A stretch of 53,348 bases of DNA, the filler included, from Stramenopiles sp. TOSAG23-3 (Eukaryota), in the NCBI GenBank assembly GCA_900128585.1. It is 4 parts of 4 records of this genome, joined end to end, with 100 filler letters (N's around TTAATTAATTAA, not from the genome) between each part and the next. Parts side by side here need not be neighbours in the genome. Positions count along the whole stretch, not along the records: positions 49,187 to 51,218 come from LT645141.1; 3 more parts are not named here. One strand, given 5' to 3'. Position numbers and translations under genes: made by a program. Shown here piece after piece: positions 49,187-53,348 of the stretch. The notes beneath the pieces are model-generated. The model was not told the DNA's origin, did no database searches, and saw nothing but the letters and a program-made list of their open reading frames with translations. Numbering within the stretch: the stretch's first letter is position 1; every line of letters begins with the position of its first letter.

Positions 49187-49326
49187 AGGTTTTTTTTAAG
49201 ATAATTTTGCTGCAACCAGTGCAAGCGTCCGAAAAACTCGAATGTAGACAATATTTGTACAGTCGATTATCGTATTATTGCTCTGAAATACTTGTGTACC
49301 TACTCACAGTTTTAAAATGGCGGCTC
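49187..49326 (+). repeat. left inverted repeat (140 bp)
   Basis: Reverse complement of 51079-51218 with only two mismatches (49266/51139 and 49294/51111); contains ATG GCG GCT C of ORF 49317. Confidence 0.97.
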
Positions 49327-50150
49327 GCACCAGTACAACTCGAACAAAAAAATACGAAGTTACAGTGGGGTGGACTTCAATGGCACGTCCTTATTGGGAG
49401 TACAAAAATGCGGGTGAGAATGGGCAATATATGAGATATGTGCCGAGTGACGCAGATGACAGCGCCTCCTACAAGCATAAAATTGCTTTCCAATATTTTG
49501 GGGATCCCCCAAGTGGTTGGTGGAAGGAATGGGAGAAAAAGGCAAAAGAAGCCAGGACTAAGAGGGGCGGCCCAGCGGTTAATTTGGTAGATTATCGCAC
49601 TCGTGGGACCAGTAGAAAAAGAAAAACGCCTTTAAAAGCATACTGCGTAAAATGTGAAGAAGAGATCAAGTATATTTCCAAGGAAAGAAAGGGTTTTTGC
49701 ATTGCTTGTAGTAATAAACATCGAAAACAAGTAAATGCCCAGAAGAAAGAAGCACAAAGAAATCTGGCTCTCCGAGAGACAGAGATGAGAACCCTACAGG
49801 ACCAAGTGAACATGTTTTCTGAAAATAATGATTCTTTGAAAACTGAAAATGACGTATTGCGACACAAAATCGAAAGGATATCAGCAGAAGCAGCTAAAAA
49901 TGCTTCAAAATACGACAGGCAGTTATCGTCAATCAGAAAACAACAAGAAAAAGCGAAGGCGGAAGCAGAACTTGGGGGTGAAGCTATGGCGCGAGTAGCA
50001 ACTCTGTTCATGGATATTGCAGCAATTTTTAAATCCTTAGACGCAACTGGCAAGCGAATAATGGAAGTGCGTTCATTATGCGCAGAAAATCGCTTAAGTC
50101 ATGAAAAATTATCAAAAGAGAAAATGCGTTTTATGTCCATGTTGCGTTAG
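49317..50150 (+). CDS. 277-aa protein: PWWP-like N-terminus, C4 zinc finger, coiled coil
   Basis: ATG lies inside the left IR. Motifs: WTSMARPYW...KIAFQYFGD..SGW, basic RKRK, CVKC-x14-CIAC, then a heptad coiled coil. Confidence 0.7.
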   Translation: MAARTSTTRTKKYEVTVGWTSMARPYWEYKNAGENGQYMRYVPSDADDSASYKHKIAFQYFGDPPSGWWKEWEKKAKEARTKRGGPAVNLVDYRTRGTSRKRKTPLKAYCVKCEEEIKYISKERKGFCIACSNKHRKQVNAQKKEAQRNLALRETEMRTLQDQVNMFSENNDSLKTENDVLRHKIERISAEAAKNASKYDRQLSSIRKQQEKAKAEAELGGEAMARVATLFMDIAAIFKSLDATGKRIMEVRSLCAENRLSHEKLSKEKMRFMSMLR

Positions 50151-50417
50151 ATTTTGCATCTCAAATCCGTACACTGCAGCACGTGGAAAAGTCATTCTGT
50201 TGTTGCGCATTTGGTCTTGGCATGACGCCCCCCCATCGCCAATAACTACATCTGGCTTGCCGTTTCCAATATGTATTTCTCGTAATAGTCTATGCACAGT
50301 AAAATAACTAGGTTCATCTAGTGTTCCACTCATCCCTAAGCCTGGAATGTCCGCTTTTGACTGGATTGCCCAATACTTTCTTCTACACTGTTTTGCATCT
50401 GCGGTGTGTTGCGCTTT
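50112..50417 (-). pseudogene. truncated class I SAM-methyltransferase-like fragment, in the -1 frame of ORF 50336..51088
   Basis: Open frame KAQHTADAKQCRRKYWAIQSKADIPGLGMSGTLDEPSYFTVHRLLREIHIGNGKPDVVIGDGGASCQDQMRNNRMTFPRAAVYGFEMQ... has motif I-like VIGDGGAS and motif II-like FPxAxVYGFE. It ends shortly after running into the 3' end of the opposite ORF. Confidence 0.45.
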
Positions 50418-51088
50418 TTAGTGCGCTTGCCTCGTGGGGTAAAAGCTACACCTGAAGTTGAAGCTACACCTGAGGTTGTTGGTTGAGGGGTACATGGTTT
50501 CGGCCGGACGTAAAAAAGATTGTGTTCGTTTCGTAGAATAATTAAATTCTCAGGGAATTTAATGCCAAGCTGCACACAATTATACACAATACCAAACAAA
50601 AGATAATACAACCGGCTTACCAAATGCTTACTTGTCTTTTTCCCTAAAATTGCCATCAAGCCATGTCTATTTGAAATTGGGTTTTGGATTTTTAACAGAT
50701 GTTCTTTATCACTTTCATTCGCAAGTGGGACGACAATATTAGTAATGTAGGCTTGCCATGATAATTCGAATCCTCTCCATGCATGCGGATTTATTCGTTT
50801 AACTGAATACTTCCCACCTTCAAAGGGTACTCCTTGAACGTTGTAGTACAGTTGGCGCCCGTCTTTGTCAAAAACTCCCCTTAAAAGTTTTCCTTCTGTA
50901 GGATGGGACGGCATTTCAGGCGATGGAGCTTTTTTGTACCCATAGATCGAAGGTTTGAACTCAGCACGATATGCCCATTTACAAAAATCTGAGCAAAAGC
51001 AGTATAAGGAAGCATTGTCGCACTCCGTACATTTTTTTGAAGCTGTGAGAGGCTGAAATCCCCAATAGTGCAAGACCTGAGCCGCCAT
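50336..51088 (-). CDS. 250-aa protein with FCS/MYM(TRASH)-type zinc finger
   Basis: ATG lies inside the right IR. CTEC-x7-FCSDFC finger, an 18-nt direct repeat encoding TSGVA twice, and a basic RGKRTKKR patch. Confidence 0.7.
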   Translation of the reverse strand: MAAQVLHYWGFQPLTASKKCTECDNASLYCFCSDFCKWAYRAEFKPSIYGYKKAPSPEMPSHPTEGKLLRGVFDKDGRQLYYNVQGVPFEGGKYSVKRINPHAWRGFELSWQAYITNIVVPLANESDKEHLLKIQNPISNRHGLMAILGKKTSKHLVSRLYYLLFGIVYNCVQLGIKFPENLIILRNEHNLFYVRPKPCTPQPTTSGVASTSGVAFTPRGKRTKKRNTPQMQNSVEESIGQSSQKRTFQA

Positions 51089-51218
51089 TTTAAAACTGTG
51101 AGTAGGTACATAAGTATTTCAGAGCAATAATACGATAACCGACTGTACAAATATTGTCTACATTCGAGTTTTTCGGACGCTTGCACTGGTTGCAGCAAAA
51201 TTATCTTAAAAAAAACCT
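51079..51218 (-). repeat. right inverted repeat (140 bp)
   Basis: Mirror of 49187-49326; contains ATG GCG GCT C of ORF 51088. Confidence 0.97.
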
Positions 51219-51318: not shown

Positions 51319-52933
51319 CCTTCTCCAGGCTTTCGTTCGACACTGCAATTGGTTTTCCGCTGACGGTTGAGAAAAATGAGCTGCTCGAGGCTGTAGGCTT
51401 TGAGCTCTTGCCCGCATCGCCGGTCGAAACTGTGGGGATGACTGTGCGAGGTGCTTTGAACCCTTTTCCCCCGTGTGGAAATGACGACTTTCCTGGGACA
51501 TTCGTCTCTGGAAGAGGTGCTTCAGCCTCGGACATGAATGAGGACGCTTCAGCGAGACTGGCCTTCGACAGGGATAATTTTCGACCCGACGCAGACGTGA
51601 ACAAAGAGATCGGTACGTCTACGTTCTTGCCAGATGGCGGAGAAGATGGTTCTAGGCCCGAAACTTTCTGAGTCGTCGCATGGCTTTCCGTAGTACCCCC
51701 ACATTTGTCCAGAAGAGAGGACGCTTGGGTAAGCCGACTTTCCGAAACGTGTATCAGTTTCCCCGAGGCGCTCTGAAATAAGGAAGACTTTGTGCTTGTT
51801 TTGTTAATCGTTCTGGGCATTTGCGATGGTTTGCTGGCCTCCTTCGCGGCCTTGCATCGACCGATGCTCTGCCCTTTCCTTCGCGCTTGTTGGATCGCGC
51901 CGTCTTCTTCCTCCAACAAAGTCGATGCTTTCGCTAACAAGTTTTCCGATACGTTAATTTGGCGCCCAGATGCACTTTGAAAAAGCGACTTTGCACTGCC
52001 CCCGTATTTGACTTTTCGTGGCGCGGGAAAAGGTTTAATATTCGACTGATGGGCTGCGGTATTCTTTGCATTTGACGGCAGGGAGGGATTGCTGTCATTC
52101 AGCAAGGAATCTGCGCTTCTCAAAAGGTCTTCGGAAAGCCTAATGGATTGCCCCGAAGATGCCTTCTTGAACAGCGACAGTGTGGACAGTGACGATGGTT
52201 TCTCCGGTGCCCGCTTGTTCTTATCGGGGGGTCGTTTGGCCCTCTCCGGTCGAGCTCTGCTCCCTGATTTCCTCTTCAAAAGCTGTTCAAAGCTTCTGTT
52301 CTCTTTAATATTTACATGTTGGATGCCTGGGGGATCTCTTCGAAGGCTGCTGCTGGCGTTCGAGCCCGACCAGTTTGAAAATTTCCTTCGTTCTTTGCCC
52401 TGCTCTTTCCCGGCACTTGGAGGCGATGGCAAATCGTAGATGGAGAAAGTATTATTCTCCGACTGTTTTCCATAGTTCCATCCAGAGTCAGGGGTGGATT
52501 TTTGCTGCTGCTCAATGTTCTTTGTACTAGCGGGCTGGGCGACCTGCGCACGGTGCATAACATTTTTGTTCCCCTCGTGGACTTCAGAAAACGGTAGCAT
52601 TGGAGAGGACTCGCTCCTGTTCACGGAAGAATCGTTTGAAGAGAATTGAATTGCTTCGATGCTGCTGCCCCGTTGTCCTATCGCCAACCTGTCGGAGGTC
52701 AACGGCATCTTTGGTGCTGGGAGAGCCCCCGACGGTATCGGCTTCAACGGTATCCCATTTTCGTTTTCAGAAGTGTCGACGGTTTGGAATGAAACCGAGG
52801 CAGCAATTTCCTCCCTGGCGAGCTCTCCTTGACCTTCCACCTGTATAAAAATATCCAAAGGAAGCTGCGTGACTTTGCAGTTTTCCCAACAATTCCCCTT
52901 TTCATTTAATTTCAGAGATGGTATTTGAAACAT
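51319..52933 (-). CDS. BRCA2: BRCA2-like protein, N-terminal part with at least five BRC repeats (3' truncated at the linker)
   Basis: BRC-type repeats LFKKASSGQSIRLSEDLLRSADSLL, LFQSASGRQINVSENLLAKASTLL, LFQSASGKLIHVSESRLTQASSLL, LFTSASGRKLSLSKASLAEASSFM and FFSTVSGKPIAVSNESLEK. The DNA-binding domain is not visible. Confidence 0.82.
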
Positions 52934-53348
52934 ATTTTGCGACCGATTTATTTACAAAGCAGCAAATCAACAACAAAAACCAAACAACGGTGCCCCCCCC
53001 CGTCGCCAACCCTGGCTGATGCTGTTTCCTACCAGAAAATAGTCCAGTCCAATTGGCCACCGCCCGTACACTTCGCTCTGTTTGCTAACAAAAGCAATCC
53101 GTTCAACATTCGCTCGCTTGCTCGCTCTCCGCCCTTTTCTTTTTATGTTTTCTTATCTCTGAATTGTCCAAGAATAAAAGTAGATCTTTTTTCTTTTTTT
53201 CAAATTCAACTTGTGTTTTATCTTATAATAAGATTCAAATAATACGGTACCAAGTAAGAAAAAAAATAAAAGTTTTTTTAATAATGAAATTCATCATCAT
53301 CTTCTACTACTAAAAAATCAATCTCATTTCGGTACGGTACCTCCTGTA

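What the first reader, a model, noticed from the sequence alone, without database searches (positions are those of the whole stretch)
49187..51218. Two convergent genes launched from a shared 140-bp inverted repeat that includes their start codons
Seen: the contig ends are 138/140 identical inverted repeats. Identity stops exactly 10 nt into both ORFs (ATGGCGGCTC), so two unrelated zinc-finger genes share the same leader, start context and first three codons (MAA). The contig lacks the microsatellite spacers of the host contigs. The outer 79 bp are perfectly identical and both ends stop at the same base, as expected if the assembler broke at a longer collapsed repeat, so the true IR may be longer. 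Known: MuDR/Mutator elements express two convergent genes from TIR promoters, and IR-flanked flip-flop segments switch expression (e.g. mating-type inversion in methylotrophic yeasts). Inference: (a) a non-autonomous or internally deleted TIR transposon or virus-like element, (b) an invertible cassette that puts one or the other ORF under an external promoter, or (c) a small linear replicon. No transposase or recombinase is recognisable.
Basis: partly seen in the sequence, partly recalled or inferred. Interest (0 to 1): 0.82.

Follow-up and report, generated by a model that had tools for sequence, protein, structure and literature searches.

The report
Cut-down copy of a TIR mobile element
This 2-kb contig is a shrunken copy of a mobile element of roughly 6-7 kb from a marine microbe: it keeps both inverted ends and only the first parts of the element's two inward-facing genes, so its two 'genes' are stumps and not a new two-gene switch.

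Summary
The contig 49187-51218 has 138/140 identical inverted ends, and identity stops after ATGGCGGCTC in both ORFs.

Neither ORF is a whole gene. ORF2 is codons 1-246 of a 1610-aa protein (P0011/P0012, 99% identical). About 163 nt are then missing, which shifts the frame. Codons 301-~370 follow. At 50143-50145 a large deletion joins this stump to ORF1, and ORF1's stop codon lies just past the junction.

An independent run (X2) carries both genes running on past that junction. Contigs from three runs extend 82, 86 and 236 nt beyond the contig ends, so the repeat is at least 222 nt and the contig ends are not the element's ends. The full-length gene also sits on a 36-kb contig.

Best reading: an internally deleted, non-autonomous copy of a ~6-7-kb TIR element with two convergent genes. 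It is most likely a DNA transposon whose large orphan protein is the transposase.

The flip-flop cassette and small-replicon readings are not supported.

The parts
49187..49326 (+). Left arm of the terminal inverted repeat. These are the inner 140 nt of a repeat of at least 222 nt. It holds the leader, the ATG (49317-49319) and the first three codons plus one base of ORF1.
   Evidence: Self reverse-complement comparison gives 138/140. The X2 unitig of 226 nt covers 49187-49326 and runs 86 nt further out.
49317..50150 (+). ORF1 remnant: 276 native codons with a CxxC...CxxC zinc ribbon and a coiled coil/leucine-zipper-like stretch. The last codon and the TAG stop (50148-50150) were created by the deletion junction.
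   Evidence: ORF list. In X2 the reading frame continues past 50145 for at least 10 more codons. Only sub-threshold coiled-coil and zinc-ribbon hits were found. No homologue was found.
50143..50145 (.). Junction of the large internal deletion, with a 3-nt overlap (TGC) between the two parent sequences.
   Evidence: X2 contig 9 matches up to 50145 and then runs on unlike for 805 nt. X2 contig 10 matches from 50143 and runs on unlike for 2642 nt. The X1 unitig of 1812 nt crosses the junction without a branch.
50143..50350 (-). Out-of-frame fragment of the large gene (codons 301 to about 370 of P0011). It is listed mechanically as a 73-aa ORF at 50112-50333.
   Evidence: tblastn: P0011 aa 301-376 matches 50351-50127 at 94.7%. 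It is 62% identical to P0007 aa 320-384.
50350..50351 (.). Site of a deletion of about 163 nt (codons 247-300 plus one base). It shifts the frame and brings up the ORF2 stop at 50336-50338.
   Evidence: X2 contig 10 has 162 extra letters here plus one shared base. tblastn HSPs 1-246 and 301-376 abut with a one-base overlap. The missing peptide is present in P0011/P0012.
50351..51088 (-). Codons 1-246 of the large gene: CxxC...C zinc finger plus the conserved N-terminal domain. This is 'ORF2', listed as 50336-51088.
   Evidence: 244/246 identical to P0011. The domain family has 6 proteins at E<=0.001 among 1.84 billion representatives, aligned as A2.
51079..51218 (-). Right arm of the terminal inverted repeat. 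It holds the leader, the ATG (51088-51086) and the first three codons of the large gene.
   Evidence: The X1 unitig of 222 nt covers 51079-51218 and runs 82 nt further out. X3 contig 13 runs 236 nt further out.

Best explanation
The contig is an internally deleted, non-autonomous copy of a longer element of roughly 6-7 kb. That element is bounded by inverted repeats of at least 222 nt. SHOWN: the intact form carries two convergent genes that both start inside the repeat with the same leader and the same first three codons. One is a 1610-aa protein and the other is a longer version of ORF1. SHOWN: this copy lost about 163 nt, and then at least 3.4 kb between the two genes, at junctions with 1-3 nt of overlap. 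It kept both ends, the first 246 codons of the large gene and 276 codons of ORF1. INFERRED (odds about 0.55-0.6): the parent is a cut-and-paste DNA transposon, and the 1610-aa protein is its transposase. On this reading the N-terminal zinc-finger domain recognises the repeats, and a C-terminal conserved region of about 830 aa holds the catalytic core. The repeats would serve both as transposase binding sites and as twin promoters/5' leaders, as in maize MuDR. INFERRED: the deletions arose by interrupted repair or end joining, as in Ac/Ds, P and Mu derivatives, and this copy could move only if a full-length copy supplies the protein.
For: (1) The TIR is real and independent of this assembly. 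It is 138/140 in the window. In run X2, from another study, the same repeat unitig abuts both the ORF1 and the large-gene starts. (2) Truncation. P0011 aa 1-246 matches 51088-50351 at 99.2% and aa 301-376 matches 50351-50127. P0011 and P0012 are 1610 aa and continue through the missing 54 residues. (3) The X2 contigs continue both reading frames past 50143-50145. The large-gene continuation reads like P0011, and ORF1 reads on for at least 10 more codons. (4) The X1 unitig of 1812 nt crosses both junctions without a branch, and the copy differs from X2/P0011 at H7R and W38R. It is therefore a separate diverged copy. (5) The ends are not reached: unitigs run 82, 86 and 236 nt beyond. A full-length protein of the same 90% cluster is on a 36,433-bp contig. 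(6) Relatives show further internal breaks that keep the gene's 5' end. L002 jumps from about aa 317 to about aa 460 in another frame. L003 leaves the domain at about aa 150 and reads into unrelated sequence. The P0001 cluster members diverge at four different points. (7) A 55%-identical homologue (P0010) has a Ulp1/C48 peptidase domain inserted mid-protein (E 2.5e-15). This domain is reported in Ginger1 and Mutator transposases (PMC2836005, passages read). (8) A relative, L001, has the same convergent layout: a 1607-aa gene facing a 299-aa gene. (9) Published parallels: MuDR TIRs contain the promoters of mudrA and mudrB, and Mu elements include deletion derivatives (PMC10401008, passages read). 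Junction overlaps of 1-4 nt fit end joining after excision (PMC3814204, passages read).
Against: No transposase family was recognised. Pfam found nothing for P0007, P0011 or the C-terminal alignment A4. There was no PDB sequence match and no NCBIfam or PHROGs hit. The Atlas feature hits to RAG1/Transib and CACTA clusters score 0.76-0.80, a range that shuffled proteins often reach. My D964/D1052/E1440-1447 triad is a by-eye guess. Under it, the C(2)C and H(3-4)H signature of the CACTA/Transib group is absent. The true element ends, a target-site duplication and the copy number in any one genome were not seen. The relative L001 shows no terminal repeat within its 6.7-kb contig. GC3 of the two ORFs is 0.38 against 0.47-0.82 for ORFs of contigs 1 and 2, so the element may belong to another entity in the sample. 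All 8 single-base differences among copies are nonsynonymous, which gives no sign of purifying selection, though the numbers are small and four rest on contigs of depth 3-4.
Confidence: 0.65

Rival explanations
1. It is a defective, internally deleted genome of a linear TIR-bearing extrachromosomal replicon or virus-like element. It would be comparable to a defective interfering genome: it keeps the replication origins in the ends and is copied by the full-length helper.
For: It has long inverted ends with both genes starting inside them, and its composition is unlike the neighbouring contigs (GC3 0.38 against 0.47-0.82). The repeat unitigs of X1 and X2 stop 82 and 86 nt beyond the contig, which could be real ends. 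Deleted forms that keep both termini are expected for such replicons too. Linear mitochondrial plasmids with TIRs and polymerase genes are known (listing and abstract starts only).
Against: The X3 contig continues 236 nt beyond the contig end, about 150 nt past where the X1/X2 unitigs stop. A full-length protein of the same cluster is on a 36,433-bp contig. There is no DNA or RNA polymerase, helicase, Walker A or capsid signal in Pfam, PHROGs or motif scans. Five IMG/VR scans found no match, and nothing was found in phage or plasmid records.
Confidence: 0.15
2. The truncated copy is not mere debris. Its 246-aa N-terminal zinc-finger protein, still driven by the TIR promoter, acts as a KP-like repressor or competitor of the full-length protein. 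On this view, N-terminal-only derivatives recur because they are favoured.
For: The open frame, start context and leader are intact. N-terminal-only relatives of 172-276 aa sit on contigs of 1.2-2.2 kb in a second lineage that is 39% identical. Internally deleted P elements encode the 207-aa KP repressor (PMC7776569, passages read).
Against: No expression of the ORF2 side was seen. The only RNA-library contig covers the ORF1 start, at depth 2. The 5' end of the gene is retained simply because it lies next to the end of the element. The short relatives lie on short metagenome contigs and may be fragments. The two changes against the full-length form are both nonsynonymous.
Confidence: 0.12
3. 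It is a chimera made by whole-genome amplification or assembly, which joined the two ends of a full-length element.
For: The best holders are small data sets of 5-11 Mb of contigs, which look like amplified single cells. The big junction has a 3-nt overlap, as template switches do.
Against: There are two separate same-orientation deletions in one molecule. The X1 unitig crosses both without a branch at word depth 20, and no full-length alternative was laid in X1. The copy has its own two amino-acid changes. The repeat arrangement itself is confirmed in X2.
Confidence: 0.05
4. It is an invertible (flip-flop) cassette. Recombination between the inverted repeats would put one or the other ORF under an outside promoter.
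For: Only the geometry supports it: an inverted repeat flanking two opposed ORFs.
Against: Both ORFs are broken remnants. Both already carry the same leader inside the repeat, so inversion would change nothing for them. No recombinase was found, and no contig in the other orientation was seen among the 18 records laid.
Confidence: 0.03

Closest known systems
Maize MuDR / Mutator and its deletion derivatives
   Same: It has TIRs of about 200 nt or more and two convergent genes read inward from the two TIRs. In MuDR the TIRs hold the promoters (PMC10401008, passages read). It also has internally deleted non-autonomous copies that keep the TIRs.
   Different: No MULE/Transposase_mut or SWIM domain was detected. 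The protein is twice as long, at 1610 aa. Here the repeat reaches through the start codon and three codons of both genes. The TSD is unknown.
Drosophila P element and the KP derivative
   Same: An internal deletion leaves an N-terminal DNA-binding stump still expressed from the element's own promoter. Families of 0.5-2.8-kb deleted copies sit beside the full-length element (PMC7776569, passages read).
   Different: There is no THAP domain. The TIRs here are far longer than 31 bp. There are two genes, not one. A repressor function is untested.
CACTA/EnSpm-Mirage-Chapaev-Transib (CMCT) transposases, including RAG1
   Same: The only family lead for the large protein is Atlas feature neighbours carrying RAG1_RNase_H and Transposase_21. 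The protein is large, with a long stretch between the candidate second D and E.
   Different: Scores are 0.76-0.80, which makes this a lead only. There is no Pfam hit. The C(2)C and H(3-4)H motifs required between the second D and E (PMC12730594, sections 4 and 16 read) are not invariant under my by-eye triad. CA...TG termini could not be checked.
Transposases with a Ulp1/C48 peptidase domain (Ginger1, some Mutator)
   Same: The homologue P0010 carries a Peptidase_C48 domain. Such domains are reported in Ginger1 and Mutator transposases (PMC2836005, passages read).
   Different: The domain is inserted mid-protein and is absent from the window's own lineage (P0011). No integrase-like or MULE core was detected.
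Linear mitochondrial or cytoplasmic plasmids with TIRs
   Same: Inverted termini with opposed genes.
   Different: No protein-primed DNA polymerase or phage-type RNA polymerase was found. Sequence continues beyond the putative ends in X3, and the full gene lies on a 36-kb contig.

Membership tests
Class II TIR (cut-and-paste) DNA transposon, non-autonomous derivative | Terminal inverted repeats at both ends | tested here: met
   138/140 over the 140 nt held. The same repeat lies next to both genes in X2. The outer ends are not in the contig.
Class II TIR (cut-and-paste) DNA transposon, non-autonomous derivative | Derived from a longer coding element by internal deletion | tested here: met
   About 163 nt and at least 3.4 kb are missing relative to X2 and P0011.
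Class II TIR (cut-and-paste) DNA transposon, non-autonomous derivative | Target-site duplication flanking the TIRs, and several insertion sites | not testable with these tools
   The contig stops inside the repeat. Read laying gives no letters for the overhangs.
Class II TIR (cut-and-paste) DNA transposon, non-autonomous derivative | Transposase with an RNase-H-like DDE/D (or other recombinase) core | tested here: inconclusive
   No Pfam, PDB, NCBIfam or PHROGs sequence hit. Conserved D/D/E candidates were picked by eye only.
Mutator/MuDR (MULE) superfamily | MULE/Transposase_mut catalytic domain | tested here: not met
   Pfam scans of P0007, P0010 and P0011 list no such family at E<=0.1-0.5.
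Mutator/MuDR (MULE) superfamily | Long TIRs carrying promoters for convergent genes | tested here: inconclusive
   The geometry is met. Promoter activity is not shown. One 151-nt contig of a polyA RNA library covers 49271-49421 at depth 2.
CMCT group (CACTA/EnSpm, Mirage, Chapaev, Transib, RAG1) | [quoted passage not shown] | tested here: not met
   Between D1052 and E1440-1447 the only invariant motif is C(2)H at 1190-1193. Invariant CxxC lie at 20, 453, 713 and 1555, and H(4)H at 983-988. The triad itself is unverified, so this is a weak 'not met'.
CMCT group (CACTA/EnSpm, Mirage, Chapaev, Transib, RAG1) | 5'-CA...TG-3' termini and 2-5-bp TSD | not testable with these tools
   The element ends are not in any sequence I could read.
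KDZ (Kyakuja-Dileera-Zisupton) | KDZ transposase domain detectable by profile | tested here: not met
   No Pfam family at all for P0007 or P0011. That Pfam holds a KDZ model is recalled, not checked.
Linear plasmid / protein-primed replicon | Family-B DNA polymerase and/or single-subunit RNA polymerase | tested here: not met
   No Pfam hit. No conserved polymerase or Walker A motif in 3 of 3 full-length proteins.
Invertible (flip-flop) segment | Both orientations present, and a site-specific recombinase | tested here: not met
   The records laid from X1, X2, X3 and X19 show one arrangement only and no joints. No recombinase family was found. Contigs can miss rare forms.

The most novel reading that the evidence does not exclude
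The parent element founds a so far undescribed superfamily of eukaryotic DNA transposons in marine protists. It would have an orphan transposase of about 1600 aa with no detectable tie to the known superfamilies. Its TIRs, longer than 220 nt, would carry promoter, leader, start codon and the first three codons for two convergent genes. Its second gene would be exchangeable between lineages (ORF1 here, an unrelated 299-aa gene in L001). N-terminal-only deletion copies such as this one would be kept because they damp transposition, like KP elements.
Probability: 0.15. Interest if true: 0.7.

Novelty: new variant of a known kind. Interest (0 to 1): 0.4.

Why it matters
The contig itself is ordinary in kind: a non-autonomous deletion copy of a mobile element. 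Its two ORFs should not be annotated as intact genes. What deserves a follow-up is the parent. It encodes a conserved protein of about 1600 aa that the sources name only 'hypothetical protein', and no family library recognises it. It is seen in three runs from three different studies at near identity, and proteins of the family occur in JGI, ENA and NCBI data. It is built like MuDR, with both genes reading in from identical ends. If the protein proves to be a transposase, it adds a lineage, perhaps a superfamily, of DNA transposons from poorly sampled marine eukaryotes. It would also be a clean case of a repeat serving as both recombination site and twin promoter.

Tried and rejected
- **Whole genome and earlier findings:** neither is held or open for this window.
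- **Structure prediction:** No fold and no fold search could be run.
- **Complex prediction:** a job with two copies of the N-terminal domain was not available.
- **Atlas:** a part of P0011, and P0001, are not held. The whole-protein feature hits are leads only.
- **TIR 24-mer scans:** no match in IMG/VR, JGI metagenomes or prokaryote genomes.
- **Protein scans:** IMG/VR with A1, A4, ORF1 and P0008 gave none. Prokaryote genomes with A4 gave none. Phage and plasmid records gave none.
- **RNA genes:** no Rfam family and no tRNA.
- **ORF1:** no homologue in the word-indexed search. It is unrelated to P0008 and to P0011. Only sub-threshold coiled-coil, zinc-ribbon and bZIP-like hits were found.
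- **P0008:** no Pfam or PDB hit. My impression of an HxD...H oxygenase motif is by eye only.
- **L001 ends:** no TIR was found. The best short inverted matches are at chance level: 27 matches of 12 nt with <=2 mismatches, and the best candidate is 13/15.
- **Uncovered parts and depths:** these are not evidence of absence or of copy number. This applies to the uncovered X1 left arm and X2 right arm, and to the word depths of 20 in X1 against 550-1079 in X2.
- **X19 contig:** it comes from a polyA RNA library that may contain DNA.
- **Supplementary files of papers:** not consulted. They might list transposon families that match this one.
- **Literature searches:** searches turned up no description of this family, but nine keyword searches cannot show that none exists.
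Full report
**What is there**

The window is four contigs joined by N/TTAATTAATTAA spacers. The finding is one whole contig, 49187-51218 (2032 bp, GC 0.41).

- Against its own reverse complement, the first 140 nt differ at positions 80 and 108 only, and nothing matches from position 141 on.
- A 36-nt probe from the outer repeat hits just the two ends of this contig, with none expected in 100 shuffles.
- ORF1 (49317-50150 +, 277 aa) and ORF2 (50336-51088 -, 250 aa) both start at position 131 of the repeat and share ATGGCGGCTC.
- The contig has no microsatellite, unlike contigs 1 and 2.

**The ORFs are stumps**

ORF2 had one word-index homologue (P0001, 39% identity, on a 1954-bp contig). A full HMMER pass over 1.84 billion representatives found 6 proteins at E<=0.001. 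A metagenome scan with their alignment returned three loci.

In L001 the homologous domain is the N-terminus of a 1607-aa ORF. That ORF faces a convergent 299-aa ORF. Searching with the rest of that protein gave P0011, 1610 aa, whose first 246 residues are the window's ORF2. tblastn puts:

- P0011 aa 1-246 on 51088-50351 (244/246 identical);
- P0011 aa 301-376 on 50351-50127, in another frame.

The small '73-aa ORF' at 50112-50333 is that second piece, 62% identical to L001's protein. The window therefore lacks codons 247-300 plus one base, which shifts the frame and produces the ORF2 stop.

**Independent reads**

Of 22 runs listed, two small DNA data sets from different studies hold 0.96 and 0.85 of the sampled words. 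I laid four runs (X1, X2, X3, X19).

- **X1:** one 1812-nt unitig (49297-51108) spans the whole interior without a difference. A 222-nt repeat unitig runs 82 nt beyond 51218.
- **X2, repeat:** the repeat unitig is 226 nt and runs 86 nt beyond 49187.
- **X2, ORF1 side:** it lies on a 1579-nt contig that matches up to 50145 and then continues unlike for 805 nt.
- **X2, large-gene side:** it lies on a 3771-nt contig that matches from 50143, carries 162 extra letters at 50350, and continues unlike for 2642 nt.
- **X2, loose ends:** translated in frame, they give the P0011 continuation of the large gene and at least 10 further codons of ORF1. ORF1's TAG at 50148-50150 is therefore a product of the junction.
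- **X3, a seawater metagenome:** a 623-nt contig covers 50832-51218 and runs 236 nt beyond the contig end.

Three things follow. The repeat is at least 222 nt. The contig ends are assembly breaks. The intact element is roughly 6-7 kb (my sum from these pieces and the 4833-nt gene).

A protein of P0011's 90% cluster (P0012) lies on a 36,433-bp contig.

**Not an artefact**

- There are two same-orientation deletions in one unbranched unitig of word depth 20.
- The copy has private amino-acid changes against X2/P0011 (H7R, W38R).
- The repeat geometry is confirmed independently in X2.

Together these argue against an amplification chimera.

**What the parent is**

The large protein has no hit in Pfam, PDB sequences, NCBIfam or PHROGs. 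It has no Walker A or polymerase motif.

Three full-length homologues, 48-50% identical to P0011, align end to end. They share:

- an N-terminal CxxC zinc finger and domain;
- a conserved middle region;
- a conserved C-terminal region of about 830 aa, with invariant acidic residues and an invariant C(2)H.

One homologue has a Ulp1/C48 peptidase domain inserted (E 2.5e-15). Such domains are reported in Ginger1 and Mutator transposases (PMC2836005, passages).

Atlas feature neighbours are RAG1_RNase_H and Transposase_21 clusters at 0.76-0.80, which is a lead only. The CMCT signature of C(2)C and H(3-4)H (PMC12730594, sections 4 and 16) is not met under my by-eye triad.

Relatives show more internal breaks that keep the 5' end of the gene (L002, L003 and the P0001 cluster). 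This is the pattern of deletion derivatives of DNA transposons. Junction overlaps of 1-3 nt fit end joining (PMC3814204, passages).

**Mechanism proposed**

This is a TIR element built like MuDR, whose TIRs contain the promoters of its two genes (PMC10401008, passages). Here the repeat reaches through the start codon and three codons of both genes.

- **Shown:** the geometry, the truncations and the longer parent.
- **Inferred:** promoter activity, transposase function, and dependence of this copy on a full-length helper. The only RNA-library trace is a 151-nt contig at 49271-49421, depth 2.

**Rivals**

- **Defective genome of a linear replicon:** about 0.15. It is weakened by the X3 overhang, the 36-kb contig and the lack of any replication gene.
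- **KP-like repressor copy (PMC7776569, passages):** about 0.12. It is compatible with the main reading.
- **Amplification chimera:** 0.05.
- **Flip-flop cassette:** 0.03.

**Surroundings**

Contigs 1, 2 and 4 carry ordinary eukaryotic genes (DRC7, Vac14, GH47, BRCA2 repeats). Their GC3 is 0.47-0.82 against 0.38 for the element, so host assignment is open.

**Verdict**

The reading as a two-gene switch is wrong, and the reading as an internally deleted TIR element is right. The contig is ordinary in kind. Its parent family is uncharacterised and worth a fold and a full-length sequence.

Noticed in passing
L001:5445-6344 (-) against window 49317-50150: The gene that faces the large gene differs between lineages. 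L001 has a 299-aa ORF (P0008) unrelated to ORF1 and with no Pfam or PDB hit. By eye it has an HxD...H pattern, like 2OG-Fe(II) oxygenases. The second gene looks like exchangeable cargo.
   Followed up: partly
P0010 residues 860-972 (homologue of the large protein): A Ulp1/Peptidase_C48 domain flanked by proline/alanine-rich low-complexity linkers is inserted between the two conserved halves of the protein. It is absent from P0011 and P0007.
   Followed up: partly
L002:135-1158 and L003:49-1014: L002 reads the N-terminal 317 residues and then jumps, in another frame, to a stretch matching about aa 460-477 of P0010. This is a second internal deletion. L003 leaves the N-terminal domain at about residue 150 and continues in frame for about 170 residues of unrelated sequence with no Pfam hit.
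   Followed up: partly
P0001, P0013, P0014, P0015 (cluster of the 39%-identical relative): Four N-terminal-only variants of 172-276 aa, on contigs of 1.2-2.2 kb, are near-identical up to four different points and then diverge. Part of this lies in a GS-rich low-complexity stretch. They could be recurrent truncated copies or fragments.
   Followed up: no
P0011 residues ~330-560 (missing from the window copy): By eye, the middle region has motifs reminiscent of a Rossmann-type methyltransferase: a G-rich loop at 335-343 and LKGGG at 542-546, with a Cys-rich insert. Pfam finds nothing. Untested.
   Followed up: no
window 49671, 49813, 50712, 50725, 50977, 51043, 51046, 51069: All 8 single-base differences between the window copy and the X2/X3 contigs change an amino acid. 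Four of them rest on X3 contigs of depth 3-4 and may be errors.
   Followed up: partly
window 1-24583 against 24684-49086: Long ORFs of contig 1 have GC3 0.67-0.82 and those of contig 2 have 0.47-0.62. This is either strong heterogeneity within one genome or two organisms in the assembly.
   Followed up: no
window 51319-52951 (-): The fourth contig is almost filled by an open frame with BRCA2 repeats (E 9.5e-17) that runs off the contig's low-coordinate end at 51319, which is the protein's C-terminal side.
   Followed up: no
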